Positions 3,029-17,250 of a stretch of DNA of 64,000 nt are shown here, piece after piece. Below the pieces are notes generated by a model. It ran no database searches. It saw only the letters and a program-made list of their open reading frames with translations, and had not been told where the DNA came from. Position numbers and translations under genes: made by a program. Source of the stretch: Escherichia coli (lineage in GTDB: Bacteria > Pseudomonadota > Gammaproteobacteria > Enterobacterales > Enterobacteriaceae); the NCBI RefSeq assembly GCF_050320075.1, contig NZ_CP190018.1. One strand, written 5' to 3'. Position 1 is the first letter of the stretch; every line of letters starts with the position of its first letter.

Positions 3029-4723
3029 ATGTCAGATCAACTTCAAATGACAGATGGTATGCATATCATCGTTGAAGCATTAAAACAGAATGATATTGAC
3101 ACTATTTATGGTGTTGTAGGTATTCCTGTGACGGATATGGCGCGCCATGCCCAGGCGGAAGGCATTCGTTATATTGGTTTTCGTCATGAGCAGTCGGCAG
3201 GCTATGCCGCTGCGGCAAGCGGTTTTCTTACCCAAAAACCAGGGATCTGCCTGACAGTGTCTGCGCCAGGATTCCTCAATGGTTTGACCGCATTGGCCAA
3301 CGCAACGGTAAATGGTTTTCCGATGATCATGATTAGCGGCTCCAGCGACCGCGCGATCGTCGACCTACAGCAAGGTGATTATGAAGAGCTGGACCAAATG
3401 AATGCGGCAAAACCGTATGCCAAAGCAGCATTTCGCGTTAATCAGCCGCAGGATCTTGGCATTGCATTGGCACGCGCTATCCGGGTCTCAGTATCGGGTC
3501 GCCCTGGCGGAGTTTATCTTGATTTACCAGCAAATGTCCTGGCCGCGACGATGGAAAAAGACGAAGCGTTAACCACGATTGTAAAAGTTGAAAATCCGTC
3601 GCCAGCATTATTGCCATGCCCGAAGTCAGTCACTAGCGCAATTTCGCTTTTAGCAAAAGCTGAACGACCATTAGTTATCCTTGGCAAAGGCGCGGCGTAT
3701 TCACAAGCGGATGAACAGCTTCGTGAATTTATTGAAAGTGCCCAGATTCCATTCCTGCCAATGTCTATGGCGAAAGGGATCCTCGAAGATACACATCCAC
3801 TTTCTGCGGCAACTGCGCGTTCGTTTGCCCTGGCAAATGCTGACGTTGTCATGCTTGTCGGTGCACGACTGAATTGGTTACTGGCACACGGTAAAAAAGG
3901 ATGGGCGGCAGATACACAGTTTATTCAACTGGATATTGAACCGCAGGAAATTGACAGCAACCGCCCCATTGCTGTGCCAGTCGTTGGCGATATTGCATCC
4001 AGTATGCAAGGTATGCTGGCAGAATTGAAACAAAACACATTTACGACTCCACTGGTATGGCGCGATATTTTAAATATCCACAAGCAGCAAAATGCACAAA
4101 AAATGCATGAAAAATTAAGTACAGATACTCAACCATTAAATTACTTTAATGCATTAAGTGCTGTGCGCGATGTATTGCGCGAGAACCAGGATATTTATTT
4201 AGTTAATGAAGGTGCAAATACCCTGGATAATGCACGAAATATTATTGATATGTATAAACCACGTCGCCGTCTGGATTGTGGTACCTGGGGTGTCATGGGC
4301 ATCGGTATGGGCTATGCCATCGGTGCTAGCGTGACCTCTGGTTCTCCGGTTGTCGCCATTGAAGGTGATAGTGCTTTTGGTTTCAGTGGGATGGAGATTG
4401 AAACGATTTGTCGATATAACCTGCCGGTGACGATCGTTATTTTTAATAATGGCGGCATCTACAGAGGAGACGGTGTTGATCTCAGTGGCGCTGGTGCACC
4501 ATCACCAACAGATCTATTGCACCATGCAAGGTATGACAAATTAATGGATGCGTTTCGTGGCGTTGGCTATAACGTCACTACGACAGATGAACTTCGTCAT
4601 GCTTTAACCACCGGTATTCAGTCGCGCAAACCGACCATTATTAATGTGGTCATCGACCCTGCAGCAGGAACTGAAAGTGGCCATATTACCAAACTTAACC
4701 CAAAACAAGTCGCTGGTAATTAA
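3029..4723 (+). CDS. oxc: oxalyl-CoA decarboxylase (ThDP-dependent)
   Basis: Track ORF 564 aa; thiamine-diphosphate enzyme family sequence recognised as Oxc (YfdU). Confidence 0.95.
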
Positions 4724-11638: not shown

Positions 11639-12802
11639 GTGGAACAGATTAATTCAAATAAAAAACATTCTAACAGAAGAAAATACTTTTCTTTATTGGC
11701 GGTAGTTTTATTTATTGCGTTTTCAGGTGCCTATGCCTATTGGTCAATGGAATTAGAAGACATGATTAGTACAGATGATGCCTATGTCACGGGGAATGCA
11801 GATCCAATTTCTGCACAAGTTTCAGGCAGCGTCACTGTCGTTAATCATAAAGATACGAACTACGTTCGACAGGGTGACATTTTAGTCTCACTGGATAAGA
11901 CTGATGCCACTATCGCACTCAATAAAGCTAAAAATAATCTGGCAAATATTGTTCGGCAAACGAATAAACTGTACTTACAGGATAAACAATACAGTGCCGA
12001 AGTCGCTTCAGCACGTATTCAGTATCAACAATCTTTAGAAGATTATAACCGTCGTGTACCTTTAGCGAAGCAGGGGGTTATTTCAAAAGAAACGCTGGAG
12101 CATACCAAAGATACGTTAATAAGTAGCAAAGCGGCATTGAATGCTGCTATTCAGGCTTATAAAGCGAATAAAGCTTTAGTAATGAACACACCATTAAACC
12201 GTCAGCCACAAGTCGTTGAAGCTGCGGATGCAACCAAAGAAGCCTGGTTGGCGCTTAAACGTACGGATATTAAGAGTCCGGTTACCGGCTACATTGCCCA
12301 GCGAAGTGTTCAGGTCGGCGAAACAGTGAGTCCCGGACAATCGTTAATGGCTGTCGTACCGGCACGTCAAATGTGGGTTAATGCTAACTTTAAAGAAACA
12401 CAACTCACGGATGTACGGATTGGTCAATCGGTCAATATTATCAGCGATCTTTATGGTGAAAATGTTGTGTTTCATGGTCGGGTGACAGGGATCAATATGG
12501 GAACCGGCAATGCGTTCTCCTTATTACCTGCACAAAATGCGACAGGGAACTGGATCAAAATCGTTCAGCGTGTACCGGTTGAAGTTTCTCTTGATCCAAA
12601 AGAACTCATGGAACATCCCTTACGTATTGGTTTATCGATGACAGCAACTATTGATACGAAGAACGAAGACATTGCCGAGATGCCTGAGCTGGCTTCAACC
12701 GTGACGTCCATGCCTGCTTATACCAGTAAGGCTTTAGTTATCGATACCAGTCCGATAGAAAAAGAAATTAGCAACATTATTTCGCATAATGGACAACTTT
12801 AA
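11639..12802 (+). CDS. emrK: multidrug efflux periplasmic adaptor EmrK (EmrA paralog)
   Basis: Track ORF 387 aa, membrane-fusion protein family; stop overlaps emrY start (TAATG). Confidence 0.9.
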   Translation: MEQINSNKKHSNRRKYFSLLAVVLFIAFSGAYAYWSMELEDMISTDDAYVTGNADPISAQVSGSVTVVNHKDTNYVRQGDILVSLDKTDATIALNKAKNNLANIVRQTNKLYLQDKQYSAEVASARIQYQQSLEDYNRRVPLAKQGVISKETLEHTKDTLISSKAALNAAIQAYKANKALVMNTPLNRQPQVVEAADATKEAWLALKRTDIKSPVTGYIAQRSVQVGETVSPGQSLMAVVPARQMWVNANFKETQLTDVRIGQSVNIISDLYGENVVFHGRVTGINMGTGNAFSLLPAQNATGNWIKIVQRVPVEVSLDPKELMEHPLRIGLSMTATIDTKNEDIAEMPELASTVTSMPAYTSKALVIDTSPIEKEISNIISHNGQL

Positions 12803-14340
12803 TGGCAATCACTAAATCAACTCCGGCACCATTAACCGGTGGGACGTTATGGTGCGTCACTATTGCATTGTCATTAGCGACGTTTATGCAAATGTTGGAT
12901 TCCACTATTTCTAACGTCGCAATACCGACAATATCTGGCTTTCTGGGAGCATCAACAGACGAAGGCACCTGGGTTATCACTTCGTTTGGCGTAGCAAATG
13001 CCATTGCGATCCCTGTTACCGGCAGGCTGGCACAAAGAATAGGCGAATTAAGATTATTTTTACTTTCAGTCACTTTTTTTTCGCTGTCTTCCTTAATGTG
13101 TAGTTTATCGACCAATCTTGATGTGCTGATATTTTTTAGAGTCGTTCAGGGATTAATGGCGGGGCCGTTAATTCCACTGTCACAGAGTTTATTATTAAGG
13201 AATTATCCACCAGAAAAAAGAACATTTGCTCTGGCATTATGGTCTATGACCGTGATTATCGCGCCGATATGTGGGCCGATATTGGGCGGTTATATTTGTG
13301 ATAACTTTAGCTGGGGTTGGATATTTTTAATCAATGTCCCTATGGGGATTATCGTTCTGACATTATGCTTAACCTTACTTAAAGGAAGAGAAACTGAGAC
13401 TTCACCGGTCAAAATGAATCTACCAGGACTGACCCTGTTAGTGCTCGGTGTTGGTGGCTTGCAGATAATGCTTGATAAAGGGCGCGATCTGGATTGGTTC
13501 AACTCGAGTACAATAATAATACTAACAGTAATGTCAGTTATTTCTCTGATTTCTTTAGTCATTTGGGAGTCGACCTCAGAGAACCCGATTCTTGATCTCA
13601 GTTTGTTTAAGTCCCGTAATTTCACCATTGGTATTGTGAGTATCACATGCGCATATTTATTTTACTCTGGGGCGATAGTCCTTATGCCGCAGTTACTCCA
13701 GGAAACGATGGGGTATAATGCGATATGGGCCGGACTTGCCTATGCGCCCATCGGCATCATGCCGCTATTAATATCACCTTTGATAGGACGTTATGGCAAC
13801 AAAATTGATATGCGGTTGTTGGTGACATTTAGTTTTTTAATGTATGCGGTTTGCTATTACTGGCGTTCTGTGACATTTATGCCAACGATTGATTTTACAG
13901 GCATCATTTTGCCACAGTTTTTTCAGGGATTCGCCGTCGCCTGTTTCTTTTTACCCTTAACAACGATTTCGTTTTCAGGTTTGCCAGATAATAAATTTGC
14001 CAATGCCTCGAGTATGAGTAATTTTTTTCGTACCTTGTCAGGATCAGTTGGTACGTCGTTGACAATGACGCTGTGGGGACGACGCGAATCGTTACACCAT
14101 AGTCAGTTGACAGCAACCATCGATCAATTTAACCCCGTGTTTAATTCATCGTCACAAATTATGGATAAATACTATGGTTCGCTTTCAGGGGTTCTTAATG
14201 AAATTAATAATGAAATAACTCAGCAGTCACTTTCAATTTCTGCAAATGAGATTTTCCGTATGGCGGCTATTGCTTTTATCTTACTTACAGTTTTGGTTTG
14301 GTTTGCGAAACCGCCGTTTACAGCGAAAGGCGTTGGGTGA
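12802..14340 (+). CDS. emrY: MFS multidrug efflux pump EmrY (EmrB paralog)
   Basis: Track ORF 512 aa, 14-TMS-type MFS transporter. Confidence 0.9.
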   Translation: MAITKSTPAPLTGGTLWCVTIALSLATFMQMLDSTISNVAIPTISGFLGASTDEGTWVITSFGVANAIAIPVTGRLAQRIGELRLFLLSVTFFSLSSLMCSLSTNLDVLIFFRVVQGLMAGPLIPLSQSLLLRNYPPEKRTFALALWSMTVIIAPICGPILGGYICDNFSWGWIFLINVPMGIIVLTLCLTLLKGRETETSPVKMNLPGLTLLVLGVGGLQIMLDKGRDLDWFNSSTIIILTVMSVISLISLVIWESTSENPILDLSLFKSRNFTIGIVSITCAYLFYSGAIVLMPQLLQETMGYNAIWAGLAYAPIGIMPLLISPLIGRYGNKIDMRLLVTFSFLMYAVCYYWRSVTFMPTIDFTGIILPQFFQGFAVACFFLPLTTISFSGLPDNKFANASSMSNFFRTLSGSVGTSLTMTLWGRRESLHHSQLTATIDQFNPVFNSSSQIMDKYYGSLSGVLNEINNEITQQSLSISANEIFRMAAIAFILLTVLVWFAKPPFTAKGVG

Positions 14341-14447
14341 TGATAAAAGGAGGGGGTTATAGCAGGTAAGACCAGGGACCTTAAGTCTGCGCCATCGGCA
14401 GCATCGCTCACCCAGGGAAAGGATGGCGATGCTGAATTGAAAATTAA

Positions 14448-15776
14448 TTAGCGGCCTTTTGCCAGATATTGCTCCATCTCTTCTTCCGGCACCATTCCAC
14501 CTCCCGTCGCCCACACCAGATGAGTGGCATTACGCAGTTGTTCTGCGCTGAAACCGTGCATCTGTTGGTAACTTACTGATGCGCACACGCGCTGAGGCCC
14601 GGCCATACCCGCCAGTGCCGAAGGTTCAAGACGAATGCCTTCTTCCTGCGCCAGCCAGCCAAGCATGTCATACATGGTTTGATCGCTAAGGGTATAGAAG
14701 CCATCCAGTAGACGCTCCATTGCCCGCCCGACAAAGCCTGATGCGCGACCAACTGCAAGGCCATCCGCTGCGGTAAGGTTGTCGATACCAATATCCTGAA
14801 CAGAAATCTGATCGTGTAATCCTGTATGGACGCCTAACAGCATACAAGGGGAGTGCGTTGGTTCGGCAAAAAAGCAGTGAACATGATCGCCAAATGCCAG
14901 TTTAAGCCCGAATGCGACGCCACCAGGACCACCGCCAACACCACACGGCAGATAGACAAACAGAGGGTTATCAGCATCGACGATACGACCTTGCTCGGCA
15001 AATTGCGCTTTAAGACGCTGGCCTGCGACGGAATACCCAAGGAACAACGTGCGGGAATTCTCGTCATCAATAAAGAAACAGTTCGGGTCAGACTGCGCTG
15101 CGTTACGTCCTTCCTCGACTGCAACACCATAATCTTGCTCATATTCCACGACCGTAACGCCATGGCTGCGCAGTTTCGCTTTTTTCCATGCCCGGGCATC
15201 AGCAGACATATGTACTGTCACCTTAAAGCCAATGCGGGCGCTCATAATGCCGATTGATAACCCCAGATTTCCGGTTGAGCCCACAGCAATGCTGTATTGG
15301 CTAAAGAACTGTTTAAACTCCGGAGAAAGCAGTTTGCTGTAGTCATCTTCAAGCGTCAGCAACCCCGCTTCCAGAGCCAGTTTTTCTGCATGTGCCAGGA
15401 CTTCATAAATCCCGCCGCGTGCTTTTATGGAGCCGGAAATGGGCAAATGGCTATCTTTTTTCAGTAGCAGTTGCCCGCTGATCGGTTGTTGATATTCCTT
15501 TTCCAGCCGTTTTTGCATAGCCGGAATGGCAACCAGTTCTGATTCAATAATCCCCCCAGTAGCAGCAGTTTCAGGAAATGCTTTTGCCAGATAGGGTGCA
15601 AAACGGGATAAGCGCGCATGGGCGTCCTGAACATCCTGTTCGGTCAGGCCAACATAAGGTAAACCTTCAGCCAATGAGGTCGTGCCAGGATTAAACCAGG
15701 TGGTTTCTTTAAGAGCAACCAGATCCTTTACCAATGGATACTGGGCGATGAGCGAATTCATTTTAGCGTTTTCCAT
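14448..15776 (-). CDS. dsdA: D-serine ammonia-lyase (D-serine dehydratase)
   Basis: Track ORF 442 aa, PLP-dependent fold; recognised as DsdA; appears full length. Confidence 0.95.
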
Positions 15777-15793: not shown

Positions 15794-16012
15794 TTAGATG
15801 ATAAATGACAGCAGGAATGTGCCCGCCAGAGCGACGACTGAAGCGATAAATGTCGCTGTCGTATAGTATTTAAATGTTTCATTGAGCGTAGCGCCGCAAT
15901 ATTGCTTCGCCAGCCAGAAAAGCGAGTCCGTAACGATCGTGCAGCCAATCGCACCTGAACCGATAGCAATCGCAATAATTTCCGGGCTGATGTCGGGATA
16001 CAGCGGCAGCAC
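15794..16012 (-). pseudogene. dsdX: 3' remnant of dsdX (GntP-family D-serine permease), truncated by csc cluster
   Basis: About 72 codons encoding a GntP-family C-terminus directly upstream of dsdA; similarity ends at about 16012 where csc sequence begins; in-frame stop just upstream. Confidence 0.7.
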
Positions 16013-16254
16013 AATGATCCATATTTATATTTTCTTCTCCAGATTGGCGATGCCAGTTGGCATGTTTTACCTACTTGCCTACATGGTTACTCGTTGGCGA
16101 GAACAGAGGCGGAATTGGGTACAATTGTCCGGGAATTATTGTTATTTTTTATTGTATTGCCGTGTCGGGTGATAGGGCGTCGAGAATATCGTTGGATCTC
16201 GCCAGTGACGTCTGTTTCTGCTACAGTGCCCGTTTTACGGCAAACGGCTTGGGT

Positions 16255-17250
16255 ATGGCTTCATTAAAGGATGTCGCACGCCTGGCGGGAGTGTCGATGA
16301 TGACAGTCTCCCGGGTGATGCATAATGCAGAATCTGTGCGTCCTGCAACGCGTGATCGCGTATTGCAGGCAATCCAGACCCTGAATTATGTTCCTGATCT
16401 TTCCGCCCGTAAGATGCGCGCTCAAGGACGTAAGCCGTCGACTCTCGCCGTGCTGGCGCAGGACACTGCTACCACTCCTTTCTCTGTTGATATTCTGCTT
16501 GCCATTGAGCAAACCGCCAGCGAGTTCGGCTGGAATAGTTTTTTAATCAATATTTTTTCTGAAGATGACGCTGCCCGCGCGGCACGTCAGCTGCTTGCCC
16601 ACCGTCCGGATGGCATTATCTATACTACAATGGGGCTGCGACATATCACGCTGCCTGAGTCTCTGTATGGTGAAAATATTGTATTGGCGAACTGTGTGGC
16701 GGATGACCCAGCGTTACCCAGTTATATCCCTGATGATTACACTGCACAATATGAATCAACACAGCATTTGCTCGCGGCGGGCTATCGTCAACCGTTATGC
16801 TTCTGGCTACCGGAAAGTGCGTTGGCAACAGGGTATCGTCGGCAGGGATTTGAGCAGGCCTGGCGTGATGCTGGACGAGATCTGGCTGAGGTGAAACAAT
16901 TTCACATGGCAACAGGTGATGATCACTACACCGATCTCGCAAGTTTACTCAATGACCACTTCAAATCGGGCAAACCAGATTTTGATGTTCTGATATGTGG
17001 TAACGATCGCGCAGCCTTTGTGGCTTATCAGGTTCTTTTGGCGAAGGGGGTACGTATCCCGAAGGATGTCGCCGTAATGGGCTTTGATAATCTGGTTGGC
17101 GTCGGGCATCTGTTTTTACCGCCGCTGACCACAATTCAGCTTCCACATGACATTATCGGGCGGGAAGCTGCATTGCATATTATTGAAGGTCGTGAAGGGG
17201 GAAGAGTGACGCGGATCCCTTGCCCGCTGTTGATCCGTTGTTCCACCTGA
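16255..17250 (+). CDS. cscR: LacI-family sucrose operon repressor CscR
   Basis: Track ORF 16057..17250; start moved to in-frame ATG at 16255 (331 aa) where the LacI-type HTH begins (MASLKDVARLAGVSMMTVSRV). Confidence 0.9.
   Translation: MASLKDVARLAGVSMMTVSRVMHNAESVRPATRDRVLQAIQTLNYVPDLSARKMRAQGRKPSTLAVLAQDTATTPFSVDILLAIEQTASEFGWNSFLINIFSEDDAARAARQLLAHRPDGIIYTTMGLRHITLPESLYGENIVLANCVADDPALPSYIPDDYTAQYESTQHLLAAGYRQPLCFWLPESALATGYRRQGFEQAWRDAGRDLAEVKQFHMATGDDHYTDLASLLNDHFKSGKPDFDVLICGNDRAAFVAYQVLLAKGVRIPKDVAVMGFDNLVGVGHLFLPPLTTIQLPHDIIGREAALHIIEGREGGRVTRIPCPLLIRCST

What the first reader, a model, noticed from the sequence alone, without database searches (positions are those of the whole stretch)
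14341..14447. Overlapping alternative hairpins between convergent emrY and dsdA
The 107-bp gap contains GCGCCATC...GATGGCG and CAGCATCGC...GCGATGCTG inverted repeats that share sequence, so only one can form at a time. This is likely a bidirectional terminator serving both convergent genes.
Basis: seen in the sequence. Interest (0 to 1): 0.15.

Follow-up and report, generated by a model that had tools for sequence, protein, structure and literature searches.

The report
Fossil yidF hairpin ending dsdA mRNA
The hairpin between emrY and dsdA in E. coli is real, but it is a leftover of the last ~15 codons of a lost neighbouring gene (yidF); it most likely marks and protects the 3' end of the dsdA transcript, and it is neither a switch between two hairpins nor a classical terminator.

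Summary
Both inverted repeats exist at the stated coordinates, but only one matters. The 9-bp repeat CAGCATCGC/GCGATGCTG (14399-14407/14426-14434) is rarer than chance (0.8% of shuffles). It has pair probability 0.97-1.0 on both strands and is nearly invariant among E. coli alleles whose flanks vary. The 7-bp repeat (14390-96/14422-28) is at chance level (11%), has probability ~0 and is broken in the common K-12-type allele. There is no bistable pair.

No U-tract follows the stem on either strand, so it is not a canonical intrinsic terminator.

Comparison of 80 dsdA loci shows that window ~14386-14440 is a fossil of the 3' coding end of yidF (…QHRSP.E.MAML.*, stop codon retained). yidF lies convergent to dsdA in Citrobacter, Klebsiella and Salmonella. 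The hairpin sits inside those last codons and is kept by compensatory changes, including coupled amino-acid changes (QHR…AML to QQR…PLL). It survives as a stem where yidF is lost (Escherichia, Kluyvera, one Raoultella).

Published K-12 Term-seq has a low-count 'orphan' 3' end 5-6 nt after the stem on the dsdA strand, and a bicyclomycin-sensitive Rho region ~190 nt further on.

Best reading: a 3'-end-protecting stem-loop for Rho-terminated dsdA transcripts. A role for emrY is untested. Modest interest.

The parts
12802..14340 (+). emrY coding sequence (stop TGA 14338-14340), convergent with dsdA
   Evidence: ORF list; RefSeq annotation of the 100%-identical locus
14341..14385 (.). Left spacer of unknown origin. 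It is G-rich on the + strand and therefore C-rich and G-poor on the dsdA-sense (-) strand. It is the most variable part among E. coli alleles.
   Evidence: 16 of 46 alignment columns are variable. C/G ratio is 2.2-2.7 over the first ~100 nt of dsdA-sense RNA after the hairpin, against a 97.5th percentile of 1.93 for the window.
14367..14383 (-). Small second hairpin on the dsdA-sense strand: 7 bp including two G-U pairs, 3-nt loop. Only about 4-5 bp can form on the + strand. The outer UAAGA/UCUUA stem is kept while the interior and loop vary between alleles.
   Evidence: - strand fold; alleles in alignment A1; my reading of the sequence
14386..14440 (+). Fossil of the 3' coding end of yidF. 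It reads ...LSLRHRQHRSPRERMAMLN* and the original stop codon TGA is retained at 14438-14440. Homology is secure from about 14393 and arguable for 14386-14392.
   Evidence: Translation; alignment to intact yidF ends in Citrobacter, Klebsiella, Salmonella and native E. coli yidF; blastn of the Citrobacter yidF end hits the E. coli dsdA-side spacer (H95)
14399..14434 (.). Main hairpin I1. Arms are 14399-14407 and 14426-14434 (9 bp; 10 bp in K-12-type alleles). On the dsdA-sense strand an inner stem (14409-14413 with 14421-14425, one G-U pair, bulge at 14408) shrinks the loop to 7 nt (14414-14420).
   Evidence: pair probability 0.97-0.999; 42-nt MFE is -23.4 kcal/mol dsdA-sense against -19.5 for the other strand; 2 of 36 columns variable among E. 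coli alleles against 23 of 72 in the rest of the spacer, Fisher p=0.0016
14390..14396 (.). It pairs on paper with 14422-14428 (GATGGCG). I judge it incidental.
   Evidence: 7-bp repeats occur in 11% of shuffles and its pair probability is 0.0; it is broken in K-12-type alleles (GATTGCG)
14393..14393 (-). Position equivalent to the K-12 Term-seq 3' end at 2480585 (+): the dsdA-sense RNA ends ...GCGAUGCUGCCGAUG-3', 5-6 nt after the stem.
   Evidence: Adams et al. 2021 Supp. file 1, sheet LB 0.4, average count 1242.78, class 'orphan'; coordinates mapped through alignment A1 and locus L002
14441..14447 (.). Short spacer (AAATTAA) between the retained yidF stop codon and the dsdA stop codon. This is the ancestral dsdA-yidF intergenic spacer.
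   Evidence: Alignment A2. Intact dsdA-yidF pairs are mostly about 5-17 nt apart, overlapping in Lelliottia and about 50-60 nt where an insert is present.
14448..15776 (-). dsdA coding sequence (442 aa, intact in the window)
14435..14555 (+). C-rich, G-poor tract on the emrY-sense strand immediately after the hairpin, mostly antisense to the dsdA 3' end. It is a candidate rut region for emrY read-through transcripts.
   Evidence: C/G ratio 2.0-2.55 over +1 to +120. The function is inferred, not shown.

Best explanation
The spacer is built from a variable G-rich piece (14341-14385), a ~50-nt fossil of the 3' coding end of yidF (~14386-14440, stop codon retained) and the original 7-nt dsdA-yidF spacer.

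In relatives such as Citrobacter the gene order is emrD-...-dsdC-dsdX-dsdA followed by a convergent yidF-yidG-yidH. There the last 14 codons of yidF contain a hairpin that begins roughly 10-20 nt after the dsdA stop codon. E. coli's dsdCXA, now at the argW/emrY locus, brought that hairpin along while the rest of yidF was lost.

Proposed mechanism in E. coli. RNA polymerase coming from dsdA transcribes the hairpin and does not stop there, because no U-tract follows. Rho loads on the C-rich, G-poor RNA just downstream and terminates within the next few hundred nucleotides, inside antisense emrY. 3'-5' exonucleases then trim back to the stable stem-loop, leaving a defined 3' end 5-6 nt after the stem.

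The same palindrome, with a C-rich tract on its other side, could do the same for emrY transcripts, but that is inferred only.

Shown here: the repeat, its dominance in the folding ensemble, its conservation and covariation, the yidF homology, the mapped 3' end and the Rho-sensitive region in K-12.

Inferred: trimming, rut function, a benefit to dsdA mRNA stability, and any role for emrY.
For: Identity as a yidF relic:
- 35 of 80 dsdA loci have an intact yidF homologue convergent just after dsdA.
- The partner gene is yidF by E. coli annotation and by its DUF202 neighbours yidG and yidH.
- Synteny: ilvB-ivbL-tisB-emrD-...-dsdCXA-yidF-yidGH in Citrobacter against emrD, a 7-bp gap, then yidF in K-12.
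- The window reads QHRSPRERMAMLN* against KQHRSPMELMAMLR*, in the same position and orientation relative to the dsdA stop codon. Intermediates exist in Escherichia sp. E1V33 (EIIRQHRSPLELMAMLR*) and a divergent E. coli clade (DIIEQHRSARERMAMLY*).

The hairpin appears to be selected:
- Compensatory double changes U-A to G-C and C-G to G-C or U-A. 82% of cells are paired against 77.5% in shuffles (0 of 500 reach the observed value).
- RNAalifold independently predicts the same 10-bp helix.
- In Citrobacter, Klebsiella and native E. coli yidF the observed fold is more stable than about 95-99.9% of synonymous recodings on at least one strand (Salmonella: yidF-sense strand only).
- The stem survives with a shortened loop where yidF is gone: E. 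albertii has an 11-bp stem with a 5-nt loop, and Kluyvera has 12 bp.
- K. oxytoca and K. spallanzanii carry their own canonical terminator after dsdA and keep only 5 of 9 pairs.
- Within E. coli the hairpin has 2 of 36 variable columns against 23 of 72 in the rest of the spacer.

Function:
- Term-seq 3' end at K-12 2480585 (+), 5-6 nt after the stem.
- Rho termination region at 2480768 (+): reads upstream/downstream 86/26 without bicyclomycin and 216/253 with it, score 3.87, p=3.9e-9.
- C/G ratio 2.2-2.7 downstream on both strands.
Against: - The Term-seq peak is weak (count 1243, near the bottom of the range in the rows I read), is listed in only one of three conditions, and is labelled 'orphan'.
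- The Rho score is computed over 800-nt windows, so the termination point is imprecise.
- No experiment links the hairpin to dsdA mRNA stability.
- The native emrD/yidF hairpin has no listed 3' end in the same dataset.
- G-U against C-A asymmetry does not clearly favour one strand: 14 against 12 wobble cells.
- The covariation rests on a few lineages, and the -3 slide control also pairs in 66% of cells because of the CAGCAG/CTGCTG repetition.
- The 10 E. coli alleles are not independent samples.
- In this window's strain dsdC and most of dsdX are replaced by csc genes, so dsdA expression here is uncertain.
Confidence: 0.6

Rival explanations
1. Neutral fossil. The sequence is just a leftover of yidF with no selected role in E. 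coli. Any stable hairpin stalls 3' exonucleases, so the mapped 3' end is an incidental by-product.
For: The relic origin itself. The Term-seq signal is weak and seen in one condition only. Other Raoultella species lost yidF and the hairpin completely. In strains where csc replaces dsdCX the locus may be barely transcribed.
Against: The hairpin, including its loop, is far less variable than the surrounding spacer across E. coli alleles (2/36 against 23/72). Independent relics in E. albertii and Kluyvera lost the reading frame but kept or tightened the stem. The intact genes show compensatory changes and codon choice that favours pairing.
Confidence: 0.22
2. One reading: a bidirectional intrinsic (Rho-independent) terminator for emrY and dsdA, with two mutually exclusive hairpins that can alternate.
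For: The stem is palindromic and G+C-rich, lies between convergent genes and folds on both strands. A 3' end maps next to it on one strand. In the ancestral context the stem is followed on the dsdA or emrD strand by a short U-run (UUUAAU or CUUUAU).
Against: In E. coli no U-tract follows on either strand (CCGAUGG... and AAUUGAAAA.../CGUUGAAAC...), and the consensus scan finds 0 terminators. Read-through is bicyclomycin-sensitive on the dsdA strand. The alternative hairpin has probability 0.0, is at chance level, and is broken in most alleles.
Confidence: 0.1
3. A DNA-level palindrome, such as a binding site for a dimeric protein or a recombination or cruciform site, rather than an RNA structure.
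For: The repeat is perfect and symmetric. Wobble tolerance is similar on both strands, so no single RNA strand is clearly favoured.
Against: Several lineages carry G-U/C-A states that break the DNA palindrome yet keep RNA pairing on one strand. The arm sequences change completely (CAGCAGCGG/CCGCTGCTG) and the register shifts in Leclercia and Pseudocitrobacter, while a stem persists. That pattern fits structure rather than a sequence-specific site. The element is single-copy per genome.
Confidence: 0.03

Closest known systems
[quoted passage not shown]
   Same: A stable stem-loop with no U-rich tail; a steady-state 3' end a few nucleotides after the stem; a C-rich, G-poor candidate rut region immediately downstream; bicyclomycin-sensitive read-through.
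   Different: This stem-loop derives from the coding end of a lost convergent gene. Exonuclease trimming and rut function were not tested for this locus.
Bidirectional intrinsic terminators between convergent genes (described from SEnd-seq in E. coli; my knowledge of Ju et al. 2019, which the library does not hold; related preprint 10.1101/2022.10.23.513370 listed)
   Same: One palindromic hairpin sits between convergent genes and could act on both strands. In the ancestral arrangement it lies within about 20 nt of both stop codons (E. coli emrD/yidF are 7 bp apart).
   Different: There is no A-tract/U-tract pair flanking the stem in the E. coli dsdA-emrY copy. A 3' end is documented on one strand only.
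REP elements as 3'-UTR hairpins (for example preprint 10.64898/2026.03.23.713779, title and abstract seen)
   Same: An extragenic palindrome after a stop codon that could stabilise upstream mRNA.
   Different: It is single-copy (median one place per genome) and has no REP consensus. Salmonella diarizonae has a separate REP-like insert beside it.
Gene remnants at the borders of relocated gene clusters or islands (the argW-dsdCXA island of E. coli; papers listed)
   Same: A short piece of a neighbouring gene travels with the cluster and records its former context.
   Different: The retained piece coincides almost exactly with a structured element, and the same piece is retained in several separate yidF losses.

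Membership tests
Intrinsic (Rho-independent) terminator | G+C-rich stem with a short loop | tested here: met
   9-10 bp stem. With the inner stem on the dsdA-sense strand the loop is 7 nt and the 42-nt MFE is -23.4 kcal/mol.
Intrinsic (Rho-independent) terminator | U-tract immediately after the stem (at least ~5 U in 8 nt) | tested here: not met
   The tail is CCGAUGGCGC on the dsdA-sense strand and AAUUGAAAAU (window) or CGUUGAAACG (K-12) on the emrY-sense strand. The scan finds 0 sites in 13800-15000.
Bidirectional intrinsic terminator | Transcript 3' ends on both strands at one hairpin | tested here: inconclusive
   A 3' end is listed at 2480585 (+) only. No other coordinate between 2480400 and 2480799 is listed on either strand. 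emrKY is probably not expressed in those media (my knowledge).
Rho-dependent terminator with protective 3' stem-loop | Stable stem-loop without a U-tail, with the steady-state 3' end just after it | tested here: met
   The K-12 3' end lies 5-6 nt after the stem. No U-tail is present.
Rho-dependent terminator with protective 3' stem-loop | Bicyclomycin-sensitive read-through downstream | tested here: met
   Adams 2021 Supp. file 2: region peaking at 2480768 (+), Rho score 3.87, p=3.9e-9. The 800-nt windows make the resolution coarse. These are published data, not generated here.
Rho-dependent terminator with protective 3' stem-loop | C-rich, G-poor rut region downstream of the stem | tested here: met
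   C/G ratio 2.2-2.7 over about 100 nt on both strands, above the window's 97.5th percentile of 1.93. This shows composition only; Rho binding was not tested.
Rho-dependent terminator with protective 3' stem-loop | 3' end generated by exonuclease trimming (shifts in pnp/rnb mutants) | not testable with these tools
   Needs Term-seq in exonuclease mutants.
yidF gene relic (pseudogene fragment) | Sequence homology to the yidF 3' end, in frame, with the stop codon retained | tested here: met
   35 of 42 nt are identical to Citrobacter from the left arm to the stop (37 of 42 for the K-12 allele), counted by eye. Translation is QHRSPRERMAMLN*. blastn hit H95.
yidF gene relic (pseudogene fragment) | Same position and orientation relative to dsdA as intact yidF in relatives | tested here: met
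   35 of 80 loci have yidF convergent just after dsdA. Graded intermediates occur in Escherichia. Synteny.
Alternative-hairpin switch (attenuator-like) | Two mutually exclusive structures of comparable stability, both conserved | tested here: not met
   I5 has pair probability 0.0 against 0.97-0.999 for I1. I5 is broken in K-12-type alleles. 7-bp repeats occur in 11% of shuffles.
REP / other dispersed repeat | Many copies per genome with a family consensus | tested here: not met
   Median one place per genome in 5398 genomes.
Any Rfam RNA family | Covariance-model match | tested here: not met
   Only noise hits (E above 2, far below gathering scores), and none overlaps the hairpin.

The most novel reading that the evidence does not exclude
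A hairpin embedded in the last 14 codons of yidF is a shared 3'-end or termination module for whichever gene converges on it (dsdA in Citrobacter, Klebsiella and Salmonella; emrD in E. coli). Selection on it is strong enough to force coupled amino-acid replacements in YidF (QHR...AML to QQR...PLL or ...TML). It is retained as a portable 'terminator fossil' when yidF is deleted or when dsdCXA moves. The fossil next to emrY then records that E. coli's argW-linked dsdCXA came from an emrD-dsdCXA-yidF type locus.
Probability: 0.45. Interest if true: 0.45.

Novelty: new member of a known kind. Interest (0 to 1): 0.3.

Why it matters
- It explains an unassigned ('orphan') Term-seq 3' end in E. coli K-12.
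- It gives dsdXA a defined 3' end and corrects the idea of a two-state hairpin switch.
- It provides a clean natural example of an RNA structure that lives inside a coding end, constrains that protein's C-terminus, and outlives the gene.
- It is a small historical marker for how the D-serine utilisation locus, a niche and virulence-associated trait, reached its present site in E. coli.
- None of this changes general understanding of termination. It is a well-documented instance, not a new principle.

Tried and rejected
- Rfam scan of 14000-14800 at E up to 10: only noise.
- Consensus promoter/terminator scan: no terminator, and promoter-like hits at the level expected from shuffles.
- Whole-spacer folding: + strand z=-0.45, - strand z=-2.3. 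This was uninformative on its own.
- Small ORFs: only 3-7 codon ORFs (MAMLN*, MLPMAQT*) that are not conserved between alleles. The 63- and 77-aa antisense ORFs overlap the real genes. The SD-like AAGGAGG at 14347-14353 has no start codon after it. All rejected.
- REP or other dispersed repeat: single-copy.
- Strand assignment from G-U against C-A asymmetry: inconclusive, 14 against 12.
- Literature:
  - The TRS dataset (PMC10687069) has no entry for dsdA or emrY.
  - No supplements are held for Dar and Sorek 2018, the nanopore paper or Herzel 2022.
  - Ju et al. 2019 is not held.
  - The sigma-factor SELEX paper mentions the genes only in unrelated rows.
  - No searched paper contains both dsdA and yidF.
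- A search of the Term-seq tables by gene name missed the relevant 3' end, because it is labelled 'orphan'. A search by coordinate prefix found it.
- Second dsdCXA copies in some strains (up to 3 places per genome) could not be located with one row per record and were not examined.

Full report
**1. What is in the sequence**

The window is E. coli. A 507-bp query around the finding matches 5400 of 5426 complete genomes. The features under the match are emrY (+ in the window, 12802-14340) and dsdA (-, 14448-15776), which converge on a 107-bp gap. K-12 has the same 107-bp gap at 2480531-2480637.

- I1 is CAGCATCGC 14399-14407 / GCGATGCTG 14426-14434: 9 bp, perfect, with an 18-nt loop.
- I5 is CGCCATC 14390-14396 / GATGGCG 14422-14428: 7 bp, not 8.

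They share three bases and cross, so they cannot coexist.

In 2000 dinucleotide-preserving shuffles of the gap, a perfect repeat of at least 9 bp appears in 0.8% and one of at least 7 bp in 11%. In the Boltzmann ensemble the mean pair probability is 0.97-0.999 for I1 and 0.0 for I5. This holds on both strands and for both the window allele and the K-12 allele.

**2. It is not a canonical terminator or a known RNA**

No U-tract follows the stem on either strand. The consensus scan finds no terminator-like site in 13800-15000, and Rfam gives only noise.

An inner stem (CAUCC/GGGUG, one G-U pair) reduces the loop to 7 nt. The 42-nt MFE is -23.4 kcal/mol on this strand against -19.5 on the other.

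**3. Variation within E. coli**

The spacer is unusually diverse for E. coli. Only 305 genomes are at least 99% identical to the window over 150 bp. 3726 fall at 90-95% and 1293 at 80-90%.

I aligned ten alleles spread over that range.
- The variation sits in the left spacer (16 of 46 columns) and the right spacer (5 of 13).
- The hairpin, including its loop, has 2 variable columns of 36, against 23 of 72 for the rest of the gap. Fisher p=0.0016, which is indicative only because the alleles are related.
- One hairpin change is a G-C to G-U change (the NQ3 allele). The other is G to T at the position that I5 needs.
- K-12-type alleles, the majority class, therefore carry GATTGCG and cannot form the middle pair of I5.

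**4. What the sequence is: a fossil of yidF**

I fetched 80 dsdA loci from species representatives and read the DNA after each dsdA stop codon. This showed that in Citrobacter, Klebsiella, Salmonella, Pseudocitrobacter, Leclercia and others a convergent gene ends there. Its last codons read ...MRVMRDLIKQHRSPMELMAMLR*.

- 35 of the 80 loci have this gene intact.
- It is yidF. E. coli annotation calls the homologue 'yidF: radical SAM protein', and its neighbours are the DUF202 genes yidG and yidH.
- The arms of I1 are the codons Q-H-R (CAG CAT CGC) and A-M-L (GCG ATG CTG).
- The window's + strand reads ...LSLRHRQHRSPRERMAMLN*, in frame and with the yidF stop codon TGA retained at 14438-14440. 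K-12 reads ...QHRSPRERIAMLR*.
- Intermediates link the relic to the gene. Escherichia sp. E1V33 has EIIRQHRSPLELMAMLR* and a divergent E. coli clade has DIIEQHRSARERMAMLY*.

Synteny supports this reading.
- Citrobacter sp. wls619 has ilvB-ivbL-tisB-(EamA)-emrD-(cellulase)-dsdC-dsdX-dsdA, then convergent yidF-yidG-yidH-yidE-ibpBA.
- K-12 has ilvB-ivbL-tisB-ysdE-emrD, a 7-bp gap, then yidF-yidG-yidH.
- That is the same site without dsdCXA.

E. coli's dsdCXA sits elsewhere, in what the literature calls the argW-dsdCXA island, and carries about 50 nt of a yidF end with it. The relic follows dsdA, not emrY. E1V33 and E. albertii have dsdA, the relic and then lpxP with no emrKY-evgAS.

**5. The hairpin is a conserved structure inside the yidF coding end**

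The evidence comes from a gap-free 54-column alignment of 37 sequences (A3).
- The 9-pair helix is paired in 82% of cells against 77.5% in shuffles (0 of 500 reach the observed value).
- Two pairs show changes on both sides: U-A to G-C in four sequences, and C-G to G-C in three and to U-A in one.
- The U-A case is E. coli's own yidF (CAGCATCGT/ACGATGCTG). There the right-arm change costs an Ala-to-Thr replacement.
- The Klebsiella/Enterobacter type is CAGCAGCGG/CCGCTGCTG, that is QQR...PLL instead of QHR...AML. The amino acids co-vary to keep the pairing.
- RNAalifold on 19 dsdA-sense sequences independently predicts the same 10-bp helix.
- I resampled synonymous codons for the 14 codons. In Citrobacter, Klebsiella and native E. 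coli yidF the observed fold is more stable than about 95-99.9% of recodings on at least one strand; for Salmonella this holds on the yidF-sense strand only. It is not more stable in K. oxytoca, Lelliottia or Leclercia.
- Pseudocitrobacter, Buttiauxella and Leclercia keep a stem in a shifted register.

Three further observations tie the stem to dsdA.
- Relics that lost the reading frame kept or tightened it. E. albertii has an 11-bp stem with a 5-nt loop. Three Kluyvera species have 12 bp with a 9-nt loop, followed by CUUUAUCAC in one and similar tails in the others. One Raoultella keeps only the last 22 yidF codons next to intact yidG and yidH.
- K. oxytoca and K. spallanzanii have a separate canonical terminator (stem plus T7) between dsdA and yidF. 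They keep only 5 of the 9 pairs.
- This second point comes from one lineage, so it is suggestive only.

Caveats:
- Wobble asymmetry does not pick a strand (14 against 12 G-U cells).
- The -3 slide control still pairs in 66% of cells because of the triplet repetition.
- The events are few.

**6. What it does: experimental data from K-12**

In Adams et al. 2021 (eLife, PMC7815308), a search of the supplementary tables by gene name found no 3' end for dsdA or emrY. A search by coordinate found a curated Term-seq 3' end at 2480585 (+) in the LB OD 0.4 sheet.
- Its average count is 1242.78 and its class is 'orphan'.
- Its sequence context is GTTTCAACGCAGCATCGCAATCCTTTCCCTGGGTGAGCGATGCTGCCGATG|GCGCAGACTT.
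- The 3' end is nucleotide 51 of the printed string. I checked this on the SgrS entry, which ends in its U-tract.
- That places the end 5-6 nt after the stem on the dsdA-sense strand, equivalent to window ~14393 on the - strand.

The same paper's Rho table lists a termination region on that strand peaking at 2480768, inside antisense emrY. Reads upstream/downstream are 86/26 without bicyclomycin and 216/253 with it. The Rho score is 3.87 and p=3.9e-9.

Composition fits this picture. The first ~100 nt of RNA after the hairpin has a C/G ratio of 2.2-2.7 on the dsdA-sense strand and 2.0-2.55 on the emrY-sense strand. The window's 97.5th percentile is 1.93.

This is the pattern described by Dar and Sorek 2018. 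In it, Rho-dependent transcripts end just after stable stem-loops that lack U-tails, the stem-loops protect against PNPase and RNase II, and rut sites lie immediately downstream.

Weak points:
- The peak has a low count and appears in one condition only.
- The Rho score uses 800-nt windows.
- No 3' end is listed at the native emrD/yidF hairpin, although a Rho region lies beyond it on the yidF strand at 3854772.
- Nothing is known for the emrY strand. I expect emrKY to be silent in these media, but that rests on my knowledge and was not tested.

**7. Verdict**

That guess is half right.
- The 'alternative hairpin' idea fails.
- The 'intrinsic bidirectional terminator' label fails on the U-tract criterion.
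- The best-supported reading is a 3'-end-defining and protecting stem-loop for Rho-terminated dsdA transcripts. It was inherited from the coding end of yidF and retained after that gene was left behind.
- A neutral-fossil reading remains possible, at about one chance in five.

I found no paper in the searchable library that mentions dsdA and yidF together, so the relic appears to be undescribed there. The mechanism class is known, and interest is modest.

Noticed in passing
window 15794-17250 (and beyond): Upstream of dsdA the D-serine locus is disrupted. Only a C-terminal fragment of dsdX remains. dsdC is replaced by a LacI-family regulator (window ~16254-17249) and cscA, the sucrose (csc) genes, in the 100%-matching strain's annotation. 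dsdA may therefore lack its normal promoter and activator in this strain.
   Followed up: partly
window 14448-15776: dsdA is an intact 1329-nt ORF in the window. In strain CFSAN061763, which is 100% identical over the 507-bp query, dsdA is annotated as frameshifted (1328 nt). The window therefore differs from that record by an indel somewhere in dsdA, or the record has a sequencing error.
   Followed up: no
window 14321-14470; 5398 E. coli genomes: The emrY-dsdA spacer is unusually polymorphic for E. coli. Most genomes are only 80-95% identical to the window over 150 bp. The window's allele looks recombinant: its left flank is K-12-like, while its G at 14425 and its right spacer resemble the B2-type allele (TUM14759).
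   Followed up: partly
window 14346-14356: A strong Shine-Dalgarno-like run, AAAGGAGGGGG, lies right after the emrY stop codon with no start codon or conserved ORF behind it. It varies between alleles (AAAAGAGAGAG in B2-type). It probably just forms part of the G-rich tract (C-rich on the other strand).
   Followed up: partly
L091 3010-3062 (E. coli K-12 emrD/yidF junction; NC_000913.3 ~3855104-3855156): emrD and yidF converge with only 7 bp between their stop codons, so the only hairpin available to emrD transcripts lies inside the yidF coding end, followed by CUUUAUCAG on the emrD strand. Adams 2021 lists a Rho termination region on the yidF strand at 3854772 (antisense emrD) but no 3' end at the hairpin.
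   Followed up: partly
L027 and L028, ~3850-3885 (Klebsiella oxytoca, K. spallanzanii): A canonical intrinsic terminator (ATGGCGACGAA...TTCGTCGCCAT followed by T7) lies between dsdA and yidF. In these two species the yidF-embedded hairpin is reduced to 5 of 9 pairs.
   Followed up: partly
L046, L047, L057, L065, L067, L070-L072, just after dsdA: In Buttiauxella, Cedecea and some Enterobacter, dsdA is followed by long CCCTCTCCC...GGGAGAGGG-type palindromic repeats or by REP-like GCCGGATG/CCGGCCTAC elements instead of yidF. Different lineages have placed different hairpins after dsdA.
   Followed up: no
L033, L035, L036 (Raoultella), just after dsdA: yidF is completely absent, with yidG following directly. 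A new short hairpin (CAACGGC...GCCGTTG) sits after the dsdA stop codon. Raoultella sp. BIGb0138 (L040), by contrast, keeps the last 22 yidF codons with the old hairpin.
   Followed up: no
E. coli genomes with 2-3 dsdA matches (for example IAI39 NC_011750.1): About 285 extra dsdA 3'-end matches indicate second copies of dsdA in some strains. Only 5 genomes have a second match to the 150-bp spacer query, so the second copies probably have a different downstream context. I did not check whether they carry the yidF-derived hairpin.
   Followed up: no
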